A stretch of 64,000 nucleotides of DNA from a virus. A model generated the notes under the pieces. That model searched no databases. It had not been told where the DNA came from and worked only from the letters and a program-made list of their open reading frames with translations. The stretch spans positions 59,550 to 123,549 of the IMG/VR virus record IMGVR_UViG_3300025280_000023; one strand, 5' to 3'. A program made the translations under genes and the position numbers. Shown piece by piece: positions 6,062-63,898 of the stretch (its first letter is position 1; the number at the start of each line of letters is the position of its first letter).

Positions 6062-6997
6062 ATGTCTAATTATAAACTTTCAGAAAAGGGTATGGGTGGG
6101 CGGACTTTTCAAAAGAAAGAAGATGATTTTCTTGCTTGGCTAAATAAGGCTTCTGATTGGACAAAGGAGCACAAACCAAGGTTCAAACCAAAGCTGCCCT
6201 CTGGATCCCCCTCATTCAAAGGCCCATTTGCCTCGCTACAATTCTCGTTTAGCCGAGACGACTATCAGTATCCGGAGTCCCTGGGAATATCCGACTTCGT
6301 TATGCAAGATGAACTTGAACCAAATTTCTGGGTAAACAACGCCCTTAAACCACCGATTCTTCAGCGCCTGATGGTTATTACTGCCGATTTTGTCAACAGC
6401 CTGGGGCTAGACAATGTGCATATAGATGATATTATTATAACCGGCTCGATAGCAAACTATAACTGGTCTGAGTATTCCGATATTGATGTGCACATTTTAT
6501 TAGACTTCGAGGATGTTGACGACAATACTGAACTTGTTAAGAAATTCTTTGATGCAAAGCGGATGTTATGGAATAAACACCATGAAATTATGGTAAAAGG
6601 CCATGAAGTCGAAATGTACCTTCAGGATACGAAGGAAACACATGTTTCTTCCGGGGTCTATTCGCTTTTAAATGGCACGTGGGTTAAATTCCCAAAAAAA
6701 GAAGAGCCAGCGATTGATATGAAAGCAGTAGAAGAGAAAACTCTTTCGCTAATGAAGCTAATCGACGAAGTTGGTATGTTATTTTCGAATGGGCAACACA
6801 AATCTGCCCTCGATCTTTCCAGTAAAATAAAAAATAAAGTAAAAAGGATGAGAAAAACTGGGTTGGAGAGTGTCGGCGTATACTCTTCTGAAAACTTAGC
6901 GTTTAAGGCCTTAAGAAAAAATGATTATTTGGCAAAACTCCATGAACTGTACACTAATTCATATGATGAACTAATGTCCATGAATGGGGATGGGTAG
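6062..6997 (+). CDS. Pol-beta-fold nucleotidyltransferase
   Basis: ITGSIANYNWSEYSDIDVH (GS...DxD) and third acidic residue in EVEMYLQD. Confidence 0.82.
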   Translation: MSNYKLSEKGMGGRTFQKKEDDFLAWLNKASDWTKEHKPRFKPKLPSGSPSFKGPFASLQFSFSRDDYQYPESLGISDFVMQDELEPNFWVNNALKPPILQRLMVITADFVNSLGLDNVHIDDIIITGSIANYNWSEYSDIDVHILLDFEDVDDNTELVKKFFDAKRMLWNKHHEIMVKGHEVEMYLQDTKETHVSSGVYSLLNGTWVKFPKKEEPAIDMKAVEEKTLSLMKLIDEVGMLFSNGQHKSALDLSSKIKNKVKRMRKTGLESVGVYSSENLAFKALRKNDYLAKLHELYTNSYDELMSMNGDG

Positions 6998-32622: not shown

Positions 32623-33216
32623 GCTATAATTAGGCGACAACATTAGAAAAAACACTTACACTTAAGTGGCAACGAAACTGATCAAAGCATAAAAGAGCAC
32701 CAAAGCTACGCCCCAAAGAAACGGCCCTCCAAGAGCTTTAGCCCCACCAGCTAGGCCCCCGTATAGAGCAGCCCTTTAAAAAGCCCCCTATACACCAATA
32801 ACCCTTGAACATAAAGATTGTCCGCCCCATGAACCTGTAAGTAATCCTTAATAGTTCAAAAATACCTTGAAAAAATTTTTCCCAATGCCCATAATAGGCA
32901 TTCCTTTAAGAATACATGGCTGGACATTGCCCACATTGAAAAACGCTAAACGCTGTACCCGATTAGATTCGTTCTAGACGCTGATAGCCAACAATGGGAA
33001 CATCCGGTAGCACCAAGGAGCACACGGATGACTTGGGTGCCCAAGGAGCACAAACCATGGGAGCGCCTGGGATCAAAACAAAAGGGAACATCTGGGAAAA
33101 TGGGGTCCATTATGAGCGCGTATTAGGGCGGTGCCCCCACCCATCGGCCCCCCCTGGGACATACTTTACCTAGGTTGTCAAGGGTTTTCTTTGTTCACCT
33201 GTTTTTCCTTGACACG

Positions 33217-33328
33217 CTGTGGTGTGCCTGTGTGGCCCTGTGTGGCCTTGGGGAGCCTGGGGCAGCCCTGGGTATGCCTGGGGTGCCTGGGGTGCGTCCT
33301 GGGGGCACTGTGGGCTACCTGGGGGGCT
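33217..33328. repeat. degenerate ~9-11 nt G-rich tandem repeats (CCTGGGG / CCTGTGTGG units)
   Basis: About 11 imperfect units read directly in a non-coding stretch. Confidence 0.7.
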
Positions 33329-33395
33329 TGTGTTTGATCCCCCTCGCATTCCCTGTGGTTATTGTTCACTTGATTCATAGTCGTTCCCTTGGCTT

Positions 33396-33468
33396 CCCTG
33401 TTCACCGGGTTCAATCTGTTCCAATTGAACCGAGTGAACAAGGGGGCACCCGGTTTCCCAGGTGCCCC
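33396..33468. other. two adjacent hairpins downstream of the last minus-strand early gene
   Basis: TGTTCAC..GGTTCAAT/ATTGAACC..GTGAACA and GGGGCACC/GGTGCCCC inverted repeats. Confidence 0.6.
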
Positions 33469-33475
33469 GCCTGTC

Positions 33476-34561
33476 CTAGCTCGCGAAGCCCAGGGCCTGC
33501 CCGGTCTGCGTCAGGTCCCCTGCGTTCTGAGTGAACACTCGGAGGAACTGATCGGCTTTCTGCGTCGGGCTCTTCTGGTTGAGCAGAACATTCTGCCACC
33601 GTGCAGCCTGCTGAGCCTCCTCGGTCCAGGCCGACTCTTCCATACCCTTCCGGCGCTTCACGCCAGCGTGGTAATTGTCGAACTCACTGAAAGCGTTGAG
33701 CGCTCCCCAGGCGGTCTGGCCTGCCAGTTCGGAACCGATGGATCCGCCGTCGAACAGTCCAGTCAGATAATCCCGCCGGTTGGCGAGGCGGCTGTTCGTC
33801 CGGGCTCCGTCCTCGACTTCCTTGACCTTCCCGACACTGAAGTCAAGCAGACTATTCCAAGCTTCCTCGTTCACCTGCACACCGGCAGCGGCTTGGTAAA
33901 AGTCCTGGACTCCCATCAGCACCCGGATCGCCTCGCCGATTGCAGTGCGGTACTCGGCTACGCGCTCATCGGTGACGCGCTTTGTGTGCTTCAGGTTCAG
34001 GCCCTTGCCCTTGGATTGCTGGTAGGCGTAGGTGATCGTGTTGGTACAGACGGCGCGGGTGGTGCACCCTCCGGCCGTGGCCTTCAGGGCTCCAACGTGA
34101 TTGTTGAGGAGCATGAAGTAGGGGTCCACCGCGTCTCCCTTGGTTACATCAAACCGGGTGCCGTCGATCTTGAACTGCACCCAACTCGTTGCGCCCCCGT
34201 CGAAGGTGCCAGCCGTGGCGATCTTGAGACCGAATTCATTAACCACTTCTTCCGGCGGCTGGAGCACACCGAACTCGCCCGTATCCTGAAGGATCCGATA
34301 GTCCGACTTGACAATACCGAGCGTGTTGTCTCCGCGAGTCGTCGCCATGAAGCCGGGGATCTTGGAGCCGCCCGCGACCATGACAGGGCGCTTACGAACC
34401 GGGGTGGAGATCCCAGTCTGATCGAACACATCCGCGAGAACCTCGGAGGGCTTGGCATCGGATTTGTACAATCCATCAATATTGATTCCCGCGCCGTGCC
34501 ATGGCGTCCGATCGGTGTAAGCGATCGAGTCGGGCATCTGGTTGTTTGTAATAAAGGACAT
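33476..34561 (-). CDS. DUF932/DUF945 phage-plasmid protein (TIGR03299-like)
   Basis: IAYTDRTPWHG, YRILQ, TAGTFDGG, LLNNH, RAVCTNT, TAWGALNAFSEF. Confidence 0.88.
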   Translation of the reverse strand: MSFITNNQMPDSIAYTDRTPWHGAGINIDGLYKSDAKPSEVLADVFDQTGISTPVRKRPVMVAGGSKIPGFMATTRGDNTLGIVKSDYRILQDTGEFGVLQPPEEVVNEFGLKIATAGTFDGGATSWVQFKIDGTRFDVTKGDAVDPYFMLLNNHVGALKATAGGCTTRAVCTNTITYAYQQSKGKGLNLKHTKRVTDERVAEYRTAIGEAIRVLMGVQDFYQAAAGVQVNEEAWNSLLDFSVGKVKEVEDGARTNSRLANRRDYLTGLFDGGSIGSELAGQTAWGALNAFSEFDNYHAGVKRRKGMEESAWTEEAQQAARWQNVLLNQKSPTQKADQFLRVFTQNAGDLTQTGQALGFAS

Positions 34562-34592
34562 GCGCTAGCTCCTTGGGGCGGTGCCCCGGTTT

Positions 34593-34631
34593 GGAATGAT
34601 CCAACAGTACCAAATGGGTCAGTTAAGTCAA
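34593..34631 (-). promoter_or_regulatory. sigma70-type early promoter
   Basis: TTGACT-N16-TACTGT with TG extension, upstream of DUF932 gene. Confidence 0.6.
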
Positions 34632-34653
34632 CCCCTTTCTTTCAATCTCTCGA

Positions 34654-35100
34654 TTAGTCCAACTCGATCCTACGGAACCGCTTGGAATCATTCAGATTAT
34701 CTTGGGGCGGTGCCGGGGCCGTGGTGGGCCGATCATCAATCTCGATCCGCCGTGGGCGGCGGGCCAGGGGGTCACGGGTGGGCCGGTTTCCTTTGACTGC
34801 ACTATCCACCTGGGCGGCCTCTTGGGCCTCGTCCTCCCGGCGGCGCTCGTTCAGTCTGGTCAGGTAAATCCCCCGGCAGATCCCCACCTGCTGAACCAGT
34901 GCGTTCAGAGTGTTCAGAACATCATCGGGCAGGGCTCCGTACTCGCCGATTTCCTTTAGTCTACCTGAAACGTTCTGGATCTCCTCGTGGGCCATCCCCA
35001 GGAGACCGGTGACCCGACCCGTGCGGTTTAGTTCGATGTCCTTATCCGCTGCGGCCTGGACCTTTAGAACAATTGGGTTGTCGTGCTGGTAGGTGCTCAT
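34654..35100 (-). CDS. hypothetical protein
   Basis: 148 aa ORF, GGAG RBS, own TTGACT-N17-TACTGT promoter. Confidence 0.8.
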   Translation of the reverse strand: MSTYQHDNPIVLKVQAAADKDIELNRTGRVTGLLGMAHEEIQNVSGRLKEIGEYGALPDDVLNTLNALVQQVGICRGIYLTRLNERRREDEAQEAAQVDSAVKGNRPTRDPLARRPRRIEIDDRPTTAPAPPQDNLNDSKRFRRIELD

Positions 35101-36148: not shown

Positions 36149-36175
36149 CGGGCGACCTCCGTGCCATCTGTCACC

Positions 36176-36204
36176 ACACTAGCAAATGATTCAGTATGTG
36201 TCAA
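36176..36204 (-). promoter_or_regulatory. repeated early promoter copy 1
   Basis: TTGACA-CATACTGAATCATTTGC-TAGTGT. Confidence 0.75.
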
Positions 36205-36497
36205 CTGACTCTTGTGAACTCATCCTCGGTTATCACATAGGTCTTGGATTTGATCAATCCTTTCTTTTCCTTTTCAACCACGTTCTTGACGAGGGCAACC
36301 TCGTTCAACTTGTTGATCTTCTCAGATAGTTCAAGCGCTTCATCCGTCACACTACGAAACATCCGATTGCTTCTTTCCGCGCAGTCAACCTCCAGGCTCA
36401 GAGTCCGCAAAGCGTGAAGGATTTGAGATACACTAAACCCGTAGACCTCTCGCTCGCCCTGGTACTCGGGTGCTTCGTTTAGATTGGTCACTTTCAC
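36201..36497 (-). CDS. hypothetical protein
   Basis: 98 aa ORF, GAGGAGG RBS. Confidence 0.78.
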   Translation of the reverse strand: MKVTNLNEAPEYQGEREVYGFSVSQILHALRTLSLEVDCAERSNRMFRSVTDEALELSEKINKLNEVALVKNVVEKEKKGLIKSKTYVITEDEFTRVS

Positions 36498-36528
36498 TTA
36501 GGGCCTCCTCTGGCGTCCATCTGCTCTC

Positions 36529-36557
36529 AACCTAGCAAATGATTCAGTATATGTCAA
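36529..36557 (-). promoter_or_regulatory. repeated early promoter copy 2
   Basis: TTGACA-TATACTGAATCATTTGC-TAGGTT. Confidence 0.75.
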
Positions 36558-36736
36558 TCAAAACCTGTTCCCTGCCGGTGAGAATCGAACTCACTCCGGC
36601 TGCCCTTGTACGAACCGGTTTATATCCGGGCCGTGTCAGCCGTCTCCACGAAGCCGGGTCCAAGCGCAAGCTGTCCCGATACTGCCCCGATGCCCCCCCG
36701 TTGCGCCAGAGGGCAGCAGGGAACAGGTTTTGATTG
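36555..36736 (-). ncRNA. tRNA-like structured RNA with 21-bp closing stem and T-arm
   Basis: Perfect 21-bp inverted repeat 36555-36575/36716-36736; GTGAG-TTCGATT-CTCAC T-arm stacked on the closing stem. Confidence 0.65.
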
Positions 36737-36752
36737 TCTTCTCCACTCTAGC

Positions 36753-37037
36753 TCAATCGTCTTCGTCGTCCCACTCGTCGTCGTCTGCCTCATCAAGGGC
36801 ACACTGAAAAGCTGATTCAAACGAACTCTCGTCCGTGAGTTCCCACTTGCACTTGTCCACGCCTCTATGGAGGGCTTGAATAACCCAATCGCCTGAAATG
36901 TCGTACTCTTTATTCAGGTCTTTCGAGTTGAACCACTCGTCCACCTGTTCATCCAGCCACAGGGCAAGGTCCGCCGCCATGGTTCCAATTGTACTATCAT
37001 CCGGGCGCTGCTTCTTGCTTTCAGTTGTTTCAAGCAT
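36753..37037 (-). CDS. acidic hypothetical protein
   Basis: 94 aa, Asp/Glu-rich tail, AGGAG RBS. Confidence 0.75.
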   Translation of the reverse strand: MLETTESKKQRPDDSTIGTMAADLALWLDEQVDEWFNSKDLNKEYDISGDWVIQALHRGVDKCKWELTDESSFESAFQCALDEADDDEWDDEDD

Positions 37038-37239
37038 TGTGTGTCTCCTTTCCGGTCAAGATGTTTGAATCTTTCAGTATTTCTAGACACTCTCTTAGAA
37101 CAAGTAGAGTATCCTTTGGAATCGGTACGAACATCGGTGTCGGGCCTGCCAAAAAAGCAATCAGTTCGTGCAGATCCTTTTGTGTAACTAAATTCACTCT
37201 TTCGCTCCTTCGCACTTGAAGGCTTCTTCCGTTTGCCAC
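37030..37239 (-). CDS. hypothetical protein
   Basis: ORF in operon; true start may be near 37197. Confidence 0.55.
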   Translation of the reverse strand: MANGRSLQVRRSERVNLVTQKDLHELIAFLAGPTPMFVPIPKDTLLVLRECLEILKDSNILTGKETHNA

Positions 37240-37448
37240 TTGAACAACCTTAGCTTGTTCTCTGCGATTATGTCAAGTGCTGTTTTTCTTTCATTGAACA
37301 GAGAAAACTCGCAGGGCCAGCGCTCCTTCGCCTGGAGTGCCCCGTGCTCAAGGTATACGTCAATTATTTCTTCCGCTACCGCTCGGACGTAACCTAACTC
37401 GATTACTTCTTTGACCGCGTTTTCTCTAGCTCTCTTGAACCGAAACAT
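37194..37448 (-). CDS. hypothetical protein
   Basis: 84 aa ORF, GGAGG RBS. Confidence 0.72.
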   Translation of the reverse strand: MFRFKRARENAVKEVIELGYVRAVAEEIIDVYLEHGALQAKERWPCEFSLFNERKTALDIIAENKLRLFKWQTEEAFKCEGAKE

Positions 37449-37702: not shown

Positions 37703-37901
37703 TTGTCTGCTCCCTGTCTCTAAGTGAATAAAGAAGTCCTGACTCTCGAAGAATCCTCATGGCCTCTTTCATATAAGCCAACTCTCTCTTTCTCGCCGCT
37801 AGGGCTTCCACTTGTTCAATAGTTGGCAAAGGATTCATTTGGTCACTCCCTGTCTGAACCTGAGCATCAGTCTAGCCGATACTCAGGTTCATGTCAACTG
37901 C

Positions 37902-38429: not shown

Positions 38430-38456
38430 TTGGTGCCTCCTGTGAAGTTCTCAACT

Positions 38457-38485
38457 ACGTTAGCAAATGATTCAGTATACGTCAA
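38457..38485 (-). promoter_or_regulatory. repeated early promoter copy 3
   Basis: TTGACG-TATACTGAATCATTTGC-TAACGT. Confidence 0.75.
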
Positions 38486-41434: not shown

Positions 41435-41656
41435 TTTCGTTCTCCTACAGCAAAGTAATCAATGGAAACATAAGGGCCACAGTGGTAACAGTCATGTACA
41501 CATAAAAGCCAATCGAAGTAATGCTGCCATCCTTCTCGTGAAGCGTACACACTGTTTCAACAATATTCTTAAACAACTTCTTCTCCTGATGAACACTACT
41601 TGCGTTCATGTCGATACGTTAACAAGCCATAAGTAGTTTGTCAATGGGAAAACGAA

Positions 41657-41732
41657 TGGTGGGTCGGGTGGGACTTGAACCCACAACCTTCAGATTAAGA
41701 GTCTGCTATTCTGCCAATTGAATTACCAACCC
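41657..41732 (-). tRNA. tRNA-Lys (CTT)
   Basis: 76-nt cloverleaf, loop CT-CTT-AA, TTCAA T-loop, encoded CCA. Confidence 0.93.
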
Positions 41733-49375: not shown

Positions 49376-49399
49376 AATGCTTTCCTCTTCGTATTAATG

Positions 49400-49472
49400 T
49401 CGGCCCGGTGGGAATTGAACCCACGGCTTCGACTTTATAAGAATCGCGCTCTAACCCCTGAGCTACGGGCCA
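49400..49472 (-). tRNA. tRNA-Ile (TAT)
   Basis: Cloverleaf with loop CT-TAT-AA, TTCAA T-loop, U1-G72, CCA not encoded. Confidence 0.88.
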
Positions 49473-50161: not shown

Positions 50162-50251
50162 TGGTAGGGATGGCCGGGATCGAACCGGCACGAGAACAAA
50201 GTCTCAGAGGCTTTTGAGGCCACCGCGTATACCAAATTCCGCCACATCCCC
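50162..50251 (-). tRNA. tRNA-Leu (CAA)
   Basis: Class II cloverleaf with long variable arm, loop CT-CAA-AA, encoded CCA. Confidence 0.9.
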
Positions 50252-53775: not shown

Positions 53776-54261
53776 TCACTTCGAGTACTTATTCGCCACG
53801 CTTGTTGCAGCATAGGCATCTGGCTTGATCTTGCAATCAAAGCCACTTCCCTTTGCGTATCCCATTAATGAATCAGAGAATCTACTCGTCTTTGTTCCCT
53901 TCCCGGCACCACTCACATCCAAGTGCAACTCAATCGACACCTGCGGGCAATGGCTCAAAAGAAGCAGCCCCATGTGAACAGAGCGCTCCACCTCCACAGT
54001 AATCCTTTGAATAACGTTTTTGAACCGGCTCGCCTTTATCTTGCTTTTGCTTACAAAGAAGCGCCCGCCCATCTGGTCATCAGCGAAACAAAGACAAATA
54101 GAAGTTGCAAAATAACAGATCCCTTTCCTGGTGAAGCTATCCGTCCCCACTGATATGGTGCCGTTCTTCTCACTGTGTGCCGCGACCTGCTCAACAATCT
54201 GTTCGAATGTTATCTCATCCCCGCCACCAGTAACCCAACGCCGTTCTTTGAGATGCTCCAC
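53776..54261 (-). CDS. RNase H-like YkuK (DUF458) family protein
   Basis: VGTDS, EVERS, ELHLDV, IKPDAYAATSVANK. Confidence 0.85.
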   Translation of the reverse strand: MEHLKERRWVTGGGDEITFEQIVEQVAAHSEKNGTISVGTDSFTRKGICYFATSICLCFADDQMGGRFFVSKSKIKASRFKNVIQRITVEVERSVHMGLLLLSHCPQVSIELHLDVSGAGKGTKTSRFSDSLMGYAKGSGFDCKIKPDAYAATSVANKYSK

Positions 54262-63670: not shown

Positions 63671-63726
63671 CCTTACCAGCCTTGTTGTCTAAAATACCCC
63701 CGTTGTCCCGTTCGGGCAACAAAAGG

Positions 63727-63798
63727 ACTCCCCTGTGGGATTCGATACCCACATCTTCCCGGTTACGATCCAGGGCTTTACTGTTAAGCTAAGGGGAG
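63727..63798 (-). tRNA. atypical tRNA-Thr (CGT), possibly degenerate
   Basis: 7-bp acceptor CTCCCCT/AGGGGAG, D-arm, loop AT-CGT-AA, 8-nt T-loop, ends CCT. Confidence 0.6.
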
Positions 63799-63819: not shown

Positions 63820-63898
63820 TGGTACTCCCGGCAGGACTCGAACCTGCAAAAAAATCACGGCTTAGAAGACCGCTGCCCTTCCATTAGACTACGGGAGC
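63820..63898 (-). tRNA. tRNA-Arg (TCT)
   Basis: Cloverleaf, loop CT-TCT-AA, TTCGA T-loop, U-rich enlarged variable loop, encoded CCA. Confidence 0.9.

What the first reader, a model, noticed from the sequence alone, without database searches (positions are those of the whole stretch)
36555..36736. tRNA-mimic RNA: T-arm and acceptor-like helix, 21-bp clamp and pseudoknotted body
Seen (minus strand): perfect 21-bp terminal helix CAATCAAAACCTGTTCCCTGC/GCAGGGAACAGGTTTTGATTG, whose inner end continues as CCUGCUG/CGGCAGG directly onto a canonical T-arm GUGAG-UUCGAUU-CUCAC, the geometry of a tRNA top half. In place of D and anticodon arms there are about 120 nt with a hairpin whose loop GCGCAA (36701-36706) is complementary to UUGCGC (36664-36669), plus CCGGCU/AGCCGG and CCGG-AUAUAAA-CCGG stems. 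No CCA and no tmRNA ends. Known: bacterial Y RNAs and tmRNA are tRNA mimics, and defence nucleases target tRNAs. Inference: an undescribed early RNA decoy, or an RNase P/RNase III-processed RNA.
Basis: partly seen in the sequence, partly recalled or inferred. Interest (0 to 1): 0.8.

Follow-up and report, generated by a model that had tools for sequence, protein, structure and literature searches.

The report
Orphan tRNA-top-half RNA module in phage
A marine phage carries a single 182-base insert that looks like the upper half of a tRNA closed by a long perfect helix; the signal is real but has no relatives, so its function is still a guess.

Summary
The core observation holds. On the minus strand, 36555-36736 has a perfect 21-bp inverted repeat. 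It is 23 bp with one G-U and is the strongest inverted repeat in the window. Its inner end abuts a canonical T-arm, GTGAG-TTCGATT-CUCAC, giving the acceptor/T-arm stack of a tRNA.

The 119-nt "pseudoknotted body" is not supported. Alone it folds no better than shuffles (z -0.43). The loop-loop complement appears in 3.5% of shuffles. A "tRNA-Tyr(AUA)" cloverleaf appears only after relaxing ARAGORN or deleting 62 nt, and 104 of 150 shuffled bodies do as well.

Rfam gives only tRNA-Sec at 17.6 bits (cut-off 47). I found no tmRNA, Y-RNA motif, Ro, RT, RtcB, integrase or resolvase.

The element is single-copy in its 123.5-kb marine phage contig. Exact-word scans found no copy in IMG/VR or in 185,579 species genomes. 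The only two relatives found, both collinear metagenome contigs, lack it. There the two flanking genes lie 22 nt apart against 255 nt here. A sigma-70-like promoter cassette, one of three copies, starts in the last 3 nt of the repeat.

Best reading (0.4): an accessory, strand-specific, tRNA-derived RNA module, transcribed by read-through and processed. I found no expression or covariation data.

The parts
36714..36736 (-). 5' strand of the terminal helix (element positions 1-23). Positions 1-21 are the perfect inverted-repeat arm. Positions 17-23 (36714-36720, CCUGCUG) take the place of the acceptor 5' strand.
36555..36577 (-). 3' strand of the terminal helix (positions 160-182). 36571-36577 (CGGCAGG) is the acceptor-like 3' strand, directly after the T stem. 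No CCA follows, and the position of the discriminator is base-paired.
36578..36594 (-). T-arm GUGAG-UUCGAUU-CUCAC (positions 143-159): 5-bp stem, 7-nt loop of canonical T-loop sequence, G53-C61-type closing pair.
36595..36713 (-). 119-nt G+C-rich body (positions 24-142). It holds the hairpin 36694-36713 with loop GCGCAA, and the hairpin CCGG-AUAUAAA-CCGG at 36615-36629. The fold is ambiguous and not better than shuffles.
36529..36557 (-). Sigma-70-like promoter TTGACA-N17-TAGGTT. Its -35 hexamer begins in the last 3 nt of the inverted repeat. It belongs to repeat copy 36517-36557 of a 41-nt cassette.
36498..36752 (-). 255-nt intergenic gap that holds the element. The matching gap in relatives L005 and L006 is 22 nt, so this is an indel of about 233 nt.
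36753..37037 (-). Upstream ORF, 94 aa, ORFan. Its stop codon lies 16 nt before the element.
36201..36497 (-). Downstream ORF, 98 aa, ORFan, GTG start preceded by GAGGAGG.
36164..36204 (-). Second copy of the promoter cassette (reference copy of repeat family D1), after the 98-aa ORF.
38445..38485 (-). Third, more diverged copy of the promoter cassette (68% to the reference), upstream of the SprT-like gene.

Best explanation
The element is an accessory RNA module derived from, or copying, the upper half of a tRNA. A 7-bp acceptor-like helix stacks on a canonical T-arm. A 16-bp leader-trailer duplex lengthens that helix to 23 bp. The helix encloses a 119-nt G+C-rich body with no demonstrable conserved fold.

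It sits where this phage also keeps tRNA-Lys: between co-directional small ORFs on the minus strand, directly upstream of a sigma-70-like promoter.

The mechanism is inferred, not shown. The element would be transcribed by read-through from promoters upstream (nearest match at 37247-37276) as the 3' end of the 94-aa ORF message. The 23-bp perfect duplex is long enough to be an RNase III substrate. The acceptor/T-arm stack is the determinant read by RNase P, RNase Z, the CCA-adding enzyme, TruB and TrmA. Processing would then release a stable small RNA and leave the upstream message with a structured 3' end. The promoter cassette that came with the element, or stayed with it, would restore expression of the downstream gene.

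What the released RNA does, whether decoy, sponge or nothing, remains open.
For: - The inverted repeat and the flush T-arm are both far beyond chance.
- The T-loop sequence is correct only on the minus strand, the strand of all flanking ORFs and all 5 tRNAs.
- 6 of 66 predicted pairs are G-U on that strand, and it folds 6.6 kcal/mol better than the plus strand.
- The element is 60% G+C in a 43% G+C genome, as structured RNAs tend to be.
- tRNA-Lys is likewise followed within 12 nt by a promoter of the same type.
- The region holds 23 TTGACA-N16-18-TAnnnT matches against 1.75 expected, 19 of them on the minus strand.
- The element is present or absent as a unit together with a promoter copy. 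This is how accessory cassettes behave in phage hyperplastic regions (PeSL papers, passages read).
- M. smegmatis YrlA shows that a bacterial tRNA-like ncRNA with a 7-bp acceptor-like stem is cut by RNase P and receives CCA (Chen 2014, passages).
Against: - There is no homologue, so no covariation.
- The only two relatives found lack the element.
- The body is thermodynamically ordinary.
- The helix has no wobble or mismatch across 21 bp. That fits a young or DNA-level repeat as well as a selected RNA helix.
- The helix runs on past the acceptor position, so there is no single-stranded leader, discriminator or CCA of the kind bacterial RNase P prefers (established knowledge, recalled).
- Rfam's tRNA model gives no hit even at E up to 10.
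- There are no differences in the element among the contigs laid, but the laid strains are near-identical throughout, so this says nothing about constraint.
Confidence: 0.4

Rival explanations
1. It is a non-functional relic. A fragment of a tRNA gene (T-arm plus acceptor 3' strand) was caught in a recent fold-back or palindromic DNA rearrangement. The inverted repeat is a DNA-level scar that has not yet decayed.
For: - 21 bp are perfect Watson-Crick, with no wobble.
- The body is no more stable than shuffles.
- Both relatives lack the element.
- The region carries other gene-sized indels.
Against: - The helix is flush with the T stem and in exact 7+5 register, which a random breakpoint would rarely produce.
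- None of the 185,579 species genomes has a tRNA with this T-loop, T-stem 3' strand and acceptor 3' strand. The one exact hit to the 20-mer lies in a Pseudomonas coding sequence.
- None of the phage's own 5 tRNAs shares the T-arm sequence.
- The orientation agrees with transcription.
Confidence: 0.22
2. It is chiefly an RNA-processing or insulator hairpin in front of a promoter: an RNase III site or attenuator, an oversized counterpart of the stem-loop in PeSL-type terminator/promoter cassettes. The T-arm is incidental to its function.
For: - It abuts a repeated promoter cassette and marks an indel boundary.
- In T4-type phages PeSLs are composite stem-loop plus early promoter units that flank ORFan indels.
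- 23 bp of perfect duplex suits RNase III (recalled knowledge).
Against: - None of the other 18 minus-strand promoters is preceded by a comparable stem-loop.
- No U-tract follows the helix, and the terminator scan reports nothing there.
- A 140-nt 'loop' with a canonical T-arm in exact register is not what a simple hairpin needs.
Confidence: 0.17
3. It is a MITE-like mobile DNA element bounded by 21-bp terminal inverted repeats.
For: - Perfect terminal inverted repeats, small size and an intergenic site.
- Present here and absent in syntenic relatives.
Against: - It is single-copy in the 123.5-kb contig. Allowing up to 5 mismatches, the only other match to an arm is one 5-mismatch site at 53834.
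- The arm 21-mer has 0 exact hits in IMG/VR and 0 in genome contigs.
- No target-site duplication abuts the arms.
- The indel (about 233 nt) is larger than the repeat-bounded unit (182 nt) and asymmetric around it.
- No transposase, integrase or resolvase is found in the contig.
- Exact-word scans would miss diverged copies.
Confidence: 0.1
4. It is a working or recently working decoding tRNA, type II, Tyr-like with anticodon AUA, carrying a 62-nt insertion between acceptor position 7 and U8 or a 61-nt intron.
For: - ARAGORN at 70-80% of its threshold calls tRNA-Tyr(ata) at 36569-36658, or with a 61-nt intron.
- At the default threshold it calls tRNA-Tyr(ata) in 4 of 8635 in-silico deletion variants, for example with positions 24-85 removed.
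- Rfam tRNA-Sec matches the same stretch weakly.
Against: - Control: with the helix and T-arm kept and the body shuffled, 104 of 150 shuffles also give at least one default call, and 82 give 4 or more.
- ARAGORN at default settings, with or without introns, finds nothing in the real sequence.
- Rfam tRNA gives no hit at E up to 10, and tRNA-Sec scores 17.6 bits against a cut-off of 47.
- An A34-U35-A36 anticodon is essentially unused in nature (recalled).
Confidence: 0.04
5. It is a Y-RNA-like partner of a Ro60/Rsr protein, with the long terminal stem as the Ro site and the T-arm as the tRNA-like module, as drawn for D. radiodurans Yrn1.
For: It has a long helix formed by the two ends plus a T-arm. 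Yrn1 can be drawn with its terminal stem at the acceptor position (Chen 2014, section 6).
Against: - No TROVE protein is found in the contig, and no RtcB.
- No GNCGAA(N)G or GGUCCGA motif occurs on either strand.
- No Rfam Y-RNA-type hit at E up to 10.
- The contig is only about 68% complete, and a host Ro cannot be excluded.
Confidence: 0.03

Closest known systems
tRNA (acceptor/T-arm 'top half' minihelix)
   Same: A 7-bp helix stacked directly on a 5-bp T stem, with a UUCGAUU loop and a G-C closing pair. Same strand and same kind of site as the phage's own tRNAs.
   Different: No recognisable D-arm or anticodon arm beyond chance. The helix continues 16 bp past position 1/72. No free discriminator and no CCA. 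Position 1 would be C. There are 119 nt where a tRNA has about 45.
Bacterial Y RNAs (YrlA; D. radiodurans Yrn1), Chen et al. 2014, PMC4201824
   Same: An ncRNA that pairs its two ends into a long stem and contains a tRNA-like T-arm. A phage-encoded case is known. One member is cut by RNase P and receives CCA.
   Different: In YrlA the order is T, closed acceptor-like stem-loop, D, and the ends leave at the anticodon position. Here the ends leave at the acceptor position. There is no Ro-binding motif, no Ro gene nearby and no conserved D-arm.
tmRNA tRNA-like domain
   Same: Acceptor helix formed by the two ends, a T-arm next to the 3' strand, and a large insert in place of the anticodon region.
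   Different: No G3-U70, no CCA, no tag reading frame, and only about 150 nt inside. ARAGORN finds no tmRNA even at a relaxed threshold, and Rfam has no hit.
PeSL regulatory cassettes of T4-type phages (Arbiol 2010, PMC2839356; Comeau 2014, PMC4122927)
   Same: A structured element next to a repeated sigma-70-like early promoter, in an ORFan-rich region, at the boundary of an indel between related phages.
   Different: PeSL stem-loops are short G/C hairpins repeated with each promoter. Here only one of 19 minus-strand promoters has the structure. It is 182 nt and contains a T-arm.
MITEs (for example Correia-type elements; recalled, not searched)
   Same: About 100-200 bp, perfect terminal inverted repeats, intergenic, co-transcribed with neighbours.
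   Different: Single copy, no target-site duplication, and no copy in any collection scanned.
T4 RNAC and RNAD
   Same: Small phage RNAs of unknown role transcribed from the tRNA region (Uzan and Miller 2010, PMC3014915, one passage read).
   Different: No sequences were compared here. Any structural likeness is untested.

Membership tests
tRNA (Rfam RF00005 / ARAGORN) | Canonical T-arm directly followed by the acceptor 3' strand, which pairs over 7 bp with a 5' strand | tested here: met
tRNA (Rfam RF00005 / ARAGORN) | Whole cloverleaf (D-arm, anticodon arm) scoring above the detection threshold | tested here: not met
   ARAGORN default, with and without introns, finds none. Rfam tRNA gives no match at E up to 10. 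The cloverleaf after deletion is not better than shuffled bodies: 104 of 150.
tRNA (Rfam RF00005 / ARAGORN) | Single-stranded discriminator and a CCA that is encoded or can be added | tested here: not met
   The helix continues through positions 16/167. GAAC follows, with no CCA.
tRNA-Sec (RF01852) | Score at or above the gathering cut-off of 47 bits | tested here: not met
   17.6 bits, E 0.72
tmRNA | Detection by ARAGORN or Rfam; tag reading frame; CCA end | tested here: not met
   ARAGORN -m finds none at default or at ps80. Rfam finds none. I read the frames by eye and saw no tag-like ORF.
Y RNA / YrlA | Encoded next to a Ro60 (TROVE) gene | tested here: not met
   No TROVE match in the 123.5-kb contig, which is 68% complete
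Y RNA / YrlA | GNCGAAN0-1G (or GGUCCGA) motif near the 5' end | tested here: not met
   Absent on both strands. Motif taken from Chen 2014 section 6.
Y RNA / YrlA | Order T, acceptor-like stem-loop, D, with conserved D and T arms | tested here: not met
   The T-arm is the last element before the 3' strand of the terminal helix, and there is no conserved D-arm.
MITE | Terminal inverted repeats | tested here: met
   21 bp, 100%
MITE | Multiple copies in a genome or in related genomes | tested here: not met
   These are exact-word or BLAST searches, so diverged copies could be missed.
MITE | Target-site duplication abutting the repeats | tested here: not met
   The flanks are AGA| and |ACA with no duplication. 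GGAG-type microhomology lies further out, at the indel edges.
PeSL-type cassette | Repeated sigma-70-like early promoter at indel boundaries in an ORFan region | tested here: met
   Sequence level only; promoter activity was not tested.
PeSL-type cassette | Short terminator stem-loop repeated with each promoter | tested here: not met
   No comparable stem-loop before the other promoters
Invertible promoter segment (inverton) | Inverted repeats plus a site-specific recombinase, with both orientations present in reads | tested here: inconclusive
   The repeats are present. No integrase or resolvase is found. Only contigs could be laid: one spans the element in the reference orientation and no joints were listed.
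Retron ncRNA (msr-msd) | Reverse transcriptase gene next to an RNA with a1/a2 terminal repeats | tested here: not met
   No RVT_1 match in the contig. The neighbours are ORFans.
Self-cleaving ribozymes (HDV-like and others in Rfam 15) | Match to a family model | tested here: not met
   No match at E up to 10 in 36450-36850. I did not check whether theta-ribozyme models are in this Rfam copy.

The most novel reading that the evidence does not exclude
The element is the first seen member of a class of phage RNAs that display only the tRNA acceptor/T-arm face on a foreign body. They would be excised from early transcripts through a long leader-trailer duplex. They would act as a decoy or sponge for a host factor that reads the tRNA top half: a tRNA-targeting defence nuclease, RNase P/Z, the CCA-adding enzyme, TruB/TrmA or EF-Tu.
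Probability: 0.12. Interest if true: 0.75.

Novelty: new variant of a known kind. Interest (0 to 1): 0.42.

Why it matters
Phage tRNAs are now discussed as counter-measures to tRNA-cleaving defences. I saw only the search listing and the start of the abstract for van den Berg 2023 (PMC10264068). Bacterial tRNA mimics keep turning up; for Chen 2014 I read passages, and for Wang 2026 only the abstract.

A phage RNA that keeps only the enzyme-facing top half of a tRNA would be a new form of mimicry and a handle on early-infection RNA biology in uncultured marine phages.

As things stand it is a single, well-defined sequence oddity. Its value is as a seed for a structure-aware search, not as an established family.

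Tried and rejected
Homologue searches that found nothing useful:
- GenBank phages, blastn in distant mode with 501 nt: no match.
- IMG/VR with either flanking protein or the DUF932 protein: no relative.
- IMG/VR with alignment A3: none.
- IMG/VR exact words: the T-arm plus acceptor 24-mer gave 0 and the arm 21-mer gave 0.
- IMG/VR loop-anchored gapped pattern: 1 hit, L004. It lies inside a coding region, has no T stem and is a chance match.
- IMG/VR promoter-core 18-mer: 6 hits, all in coding sequence of phages with 32-40% G+C and none preceded by TTGACA. Only L008 had any tblastx match to this genome, and that lay far from the word match, so none served as a relative.
- Genome contigs: the arm 21-mer gave 0. 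The 20-mer of T-loop plus acceptor 3' strand gave 1 hit, in a Pseudomonas coding sequence with no tRNA.
- L005 and L006 hold no tRNA and nothing like the element.

Sequencing runs:
- No RNA holder was listed.
- Contigs of X12-X15 were laid. X13 spans 36547-37083, and X12 covers 36435-36585 and 36603-36806, all with 0 differences. X14 and X15 do not cover the element. The 5 differences seen lie in the downstream ORF at 36293-36356. Nothing can be said on covariation, ends or inversion.

Readings I rejected:
- tRNA with an insertion or intron (the control defeats it).
- tmRNA.
- Y RNA.
- Retron.
- attP or host-tRNA fragment: no integrase and no matching bacterial tRNA.
- Integron attC: the ends do not fit RYYYAAC/GTTRRRY, judged by eye, with the motif recalled.
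- A 64-aa ORF on the plus strand at 36539-36733. It is an opposite-strand frame in G+C-rich sequence and I did not pursue it.
- One search returned 0 hits because of an ARAGORN option (-ss). One search repeated it without that option.

Things I could not see:
- Supplements are closed. Chen 2014 Supplemental Table S2 (phage YrlA list) and the supplemental figures might bear on the comparison with phage Y RNAs.
- I found no description of such an element in the paper searches. This covers the held library only.

Full report
**Where it is**

The window is bases 59550-123549 of a 123,549-bp IMG/VR virus contig. The contig has 43.3% G+C and is estimated 68% complete. Near-identical sequence is held by at least 13 marine-metagenome DNA runs.

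The element lies on the minus strand at 36555-36736, in a 255-nt gap. Upstream is a 94-aa ORF (36753-37037) and downstream a 98-aa ORF (36201-36497), both on the minus strand. Neither ORF matches Pfam or PHROGs. All five tRNA genes of the window are also on the minus strand.

**Checking the observation**

- The 21-nt arms are 100% complementary. They form the only perfect inverted repeat of that size among the 15 pairs in the 64-kb window.
- On the minus strand the helix runs on through a U-G and a G-C pair to 23 bp.
- The T-arm GUGAG-UUCGAUU-CUCAC begins at the very next base.
- A scan of the whole contig for 5-bp stems around T[TG]C[AG]ANN gave 14 hits: four true tRNAs, this element and nine others, mostly A+T-rich. 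A T-arm exactly flush with a given helix end is therefore a roughly 4e-5 event.

The helix and the T-arm together are real, and they reproduce the 7+5 coaxial stack of a tRNA.

The rest is weaker.

- The whole element folds at -91.9 kcal/mol, z -5.5. The opposite strand does as well, z -6.9.
- The 136-nt interior alone gives z -0.43, and 60 of 200 shuffles are at least as stable.
- The GCGCAA/UUGCGC complement arises in 173 of 5000 shuffles, and in 1367 of 5000 with wobble.
- The predicted inner stems have alternatives.

I therefore treat the "pseudoknotted body" as unproven.

**Is it a known RNA?**

- Rfam at gathering thresholds finds only the five tRNAs in the window.
- With permissive settings on 36450-36850, the only match is tRNA-Sec at 17.6 bits (cut-off 47, E 0.72) over 36570-36658.
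- ARAGORN finds nothing at default settings, with or without introns, and no tmRNA even when relaxed.
- At 70-80% of its threshold, ARAGORN draws a type-II "tRNA-Tyr(AUA)".
- I removed every internal segment of 15-124 nt in silico, giving 8635 variants. Four were called tRNA-Tyr(AUA) at the default threshold, for example after removing element positions 24-85.
- The control defeats this. With helix and T-arm kept and the body shuffled, 104 of 150 shuffles gave at least one call and 82 gave four or more.

So only the top half is tRNA-like.

- The contig has no TROVE (Ro60), RtcB, reverse transcriptase, tyrosine integrase or resolvase match.
- The Ro-binding motif described by Chen et al. 2014 (section 6) is absent on both strands.
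- In YrlA the ends leave the tRNA-like domain at the anticodon position. Here they leave at the acceptor position, as in tRNA, tmRNA and the Yrn1 drawing.

**Relatives**

Exact-word and protein scans of IMG/VR, GenBank phages and 185,579 species genomes found no second copy of the element or of its arms. Two gapped or short patterns gave chance hits in coding regions.

Each flanking protein has one diverged relative in the large protein collection, at 57% and 64% identity. Apart from that, each search returned only a near-identical sequence, at 98% and 100%. A scan of metagenome contigs with the alignment of the 94-aa protein returned two loci, L005 (3667 nt) and L006 (2274 nt).

By tblastx they are collinear with the window, from 37525 to 34209 for L005 and from 37898 to 35239 for L006. 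In both, the stop of the first gene and the ATG of the second are 22 nt apart (L005 424-426 and 449-451). The window has 255 nt there.

The ribosome-binding and start region aligns (CAGGAGCCCCACATG against GAGGAGGCCCTAAGTG), and so do the first bases after the stop codon. The difference is therefore an indel of about 233 nt that contains the element. With only two lineages, the direction, insertion here or loss there, cannot be told. The same comparison shows that the 84-aa ORF at 37194-37448 is also absent from both relatives. The region is mosaic.

**Context**

- TTGACA-N16-18-TAnnnT occurs 23 times in the window against 1.75 expected, 19 of them on the minus strand.
- One copy (36529-36557) begins in the last three bases of the inverted repeat.
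- With its downstream leader it is an 83% copy of a 41-nt cassette at 36164-36204. A third copy lies at 38445-38485.
- tRNA-Lys is also followed within 12 nt by such a promoter.
- The other minus-strand promoters are not preceded by comparable stem-loops.

This recalls the PeSL cassettes of T4-type phages, which are composite stem-loop and early-promoter units at ORFan indels (passages). Here, though, the structure is unique, large and tRNA-like.

**Reading**

What is shown:
- a strand-specific tRNA top half on a 23-bp helix;
- single copy;
- accessory, since it is absent at the syntenic site of the only relatives;
- placed like a tRNA gene in a promoter-rich ORFan array.

What is inferred:
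- It is transcribed by read-through.
- The duplex and the top half direct processing, by RNase III and by RNase P/Z-type enzymes.
- A stable small RNA results.

I found no evidence for or against a decoy function. No RNA run holding it was listed. The contigs laid carry no differences in the element.

The perfect, wobble-free 21 bp is equally what a young DNA-level repeat would look like. A relic reading and a plain processing-hairpin reading therefore stay alive, and I give the functional RNA-module reading 0.4.

**Novelty and score**

It is not a member of any family tested. It is closest in kind to tRNA-derived ncRNAs (Y RNAs, the tmRNA tRNA-like domain), but with its own topology and a long clamp. 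Without homologues or expression data it is a well-characterised orphan. Interest is 0.42.

Noticed in passing
window, whole (e.g. 36176-36204, 37869-37897, 41616-41644): TTGACA-N16-18-TAnnnT occurs 23 times against 1.75 expected, 19 of them on the minus strand between 36176 and 63574. This is a dense array of sigma-70-like promoters in an ORFan-rich, probably early, region.
   Followed up: partly
window 36164-36204, 36517-36557, 38445-38485: Three copies of a 41-nt promoter-plus-leader cassette with core ATACTGAATCATTTGCTA. These are possible recombination linkers of the PeSL kind. The core has no true match in IMG/VR.
   Followed up: partly
window 37194-37448: An 84-aa ORF present here but absent from both syntenic relatives L005 and L006. 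Their gap there is 57 nt against 408 nt in the window. This is a second cassette-sized indel 450 nt from the element.
   Followed up: no
window 33000-35100: A stretch of about 2 kb at 57-64% G+C in a 43% G+C genome. It carries a DUF932 / phrog_1221 gene (33476-34561) that is 83% identical at the protein level in L005, and may have been acquired horizontally.
   Followed up: no
window 37855-37891: A 14-nt inverted repeat (93%) overlaps the spacer and start region of the promoter at 37869-37897. It could be an operator.
   Followed up: no
window 41657-41732, 49399-49472, 50162-50251, 63725-63798, 63820-63898: Five tRNAs: Lys-CTT, Ile-TAT, Leu-CAA, Thr-CGT and Arg-TCT, all on the minus strand. 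Three encode CCA (Lys, Leu, Arg) and two do not. None has a leader-trailer helix.
   Followed up: partly
window 6062-6997: A 311-aa protein with a borderline nucleotidyltransferase (NTP_transf_2) match, E 4.5e-4, at the cut-off. I did not test whether it acts on RNA 3' ends.
   Followed up: no
window 36293-36356: Five single-base differences cluster within 64 nt of the 98-aa ORF in one run (X13). The adjacent 537 nt, including the element, are identical. This may be a small recombination patch.
   Followed up: no
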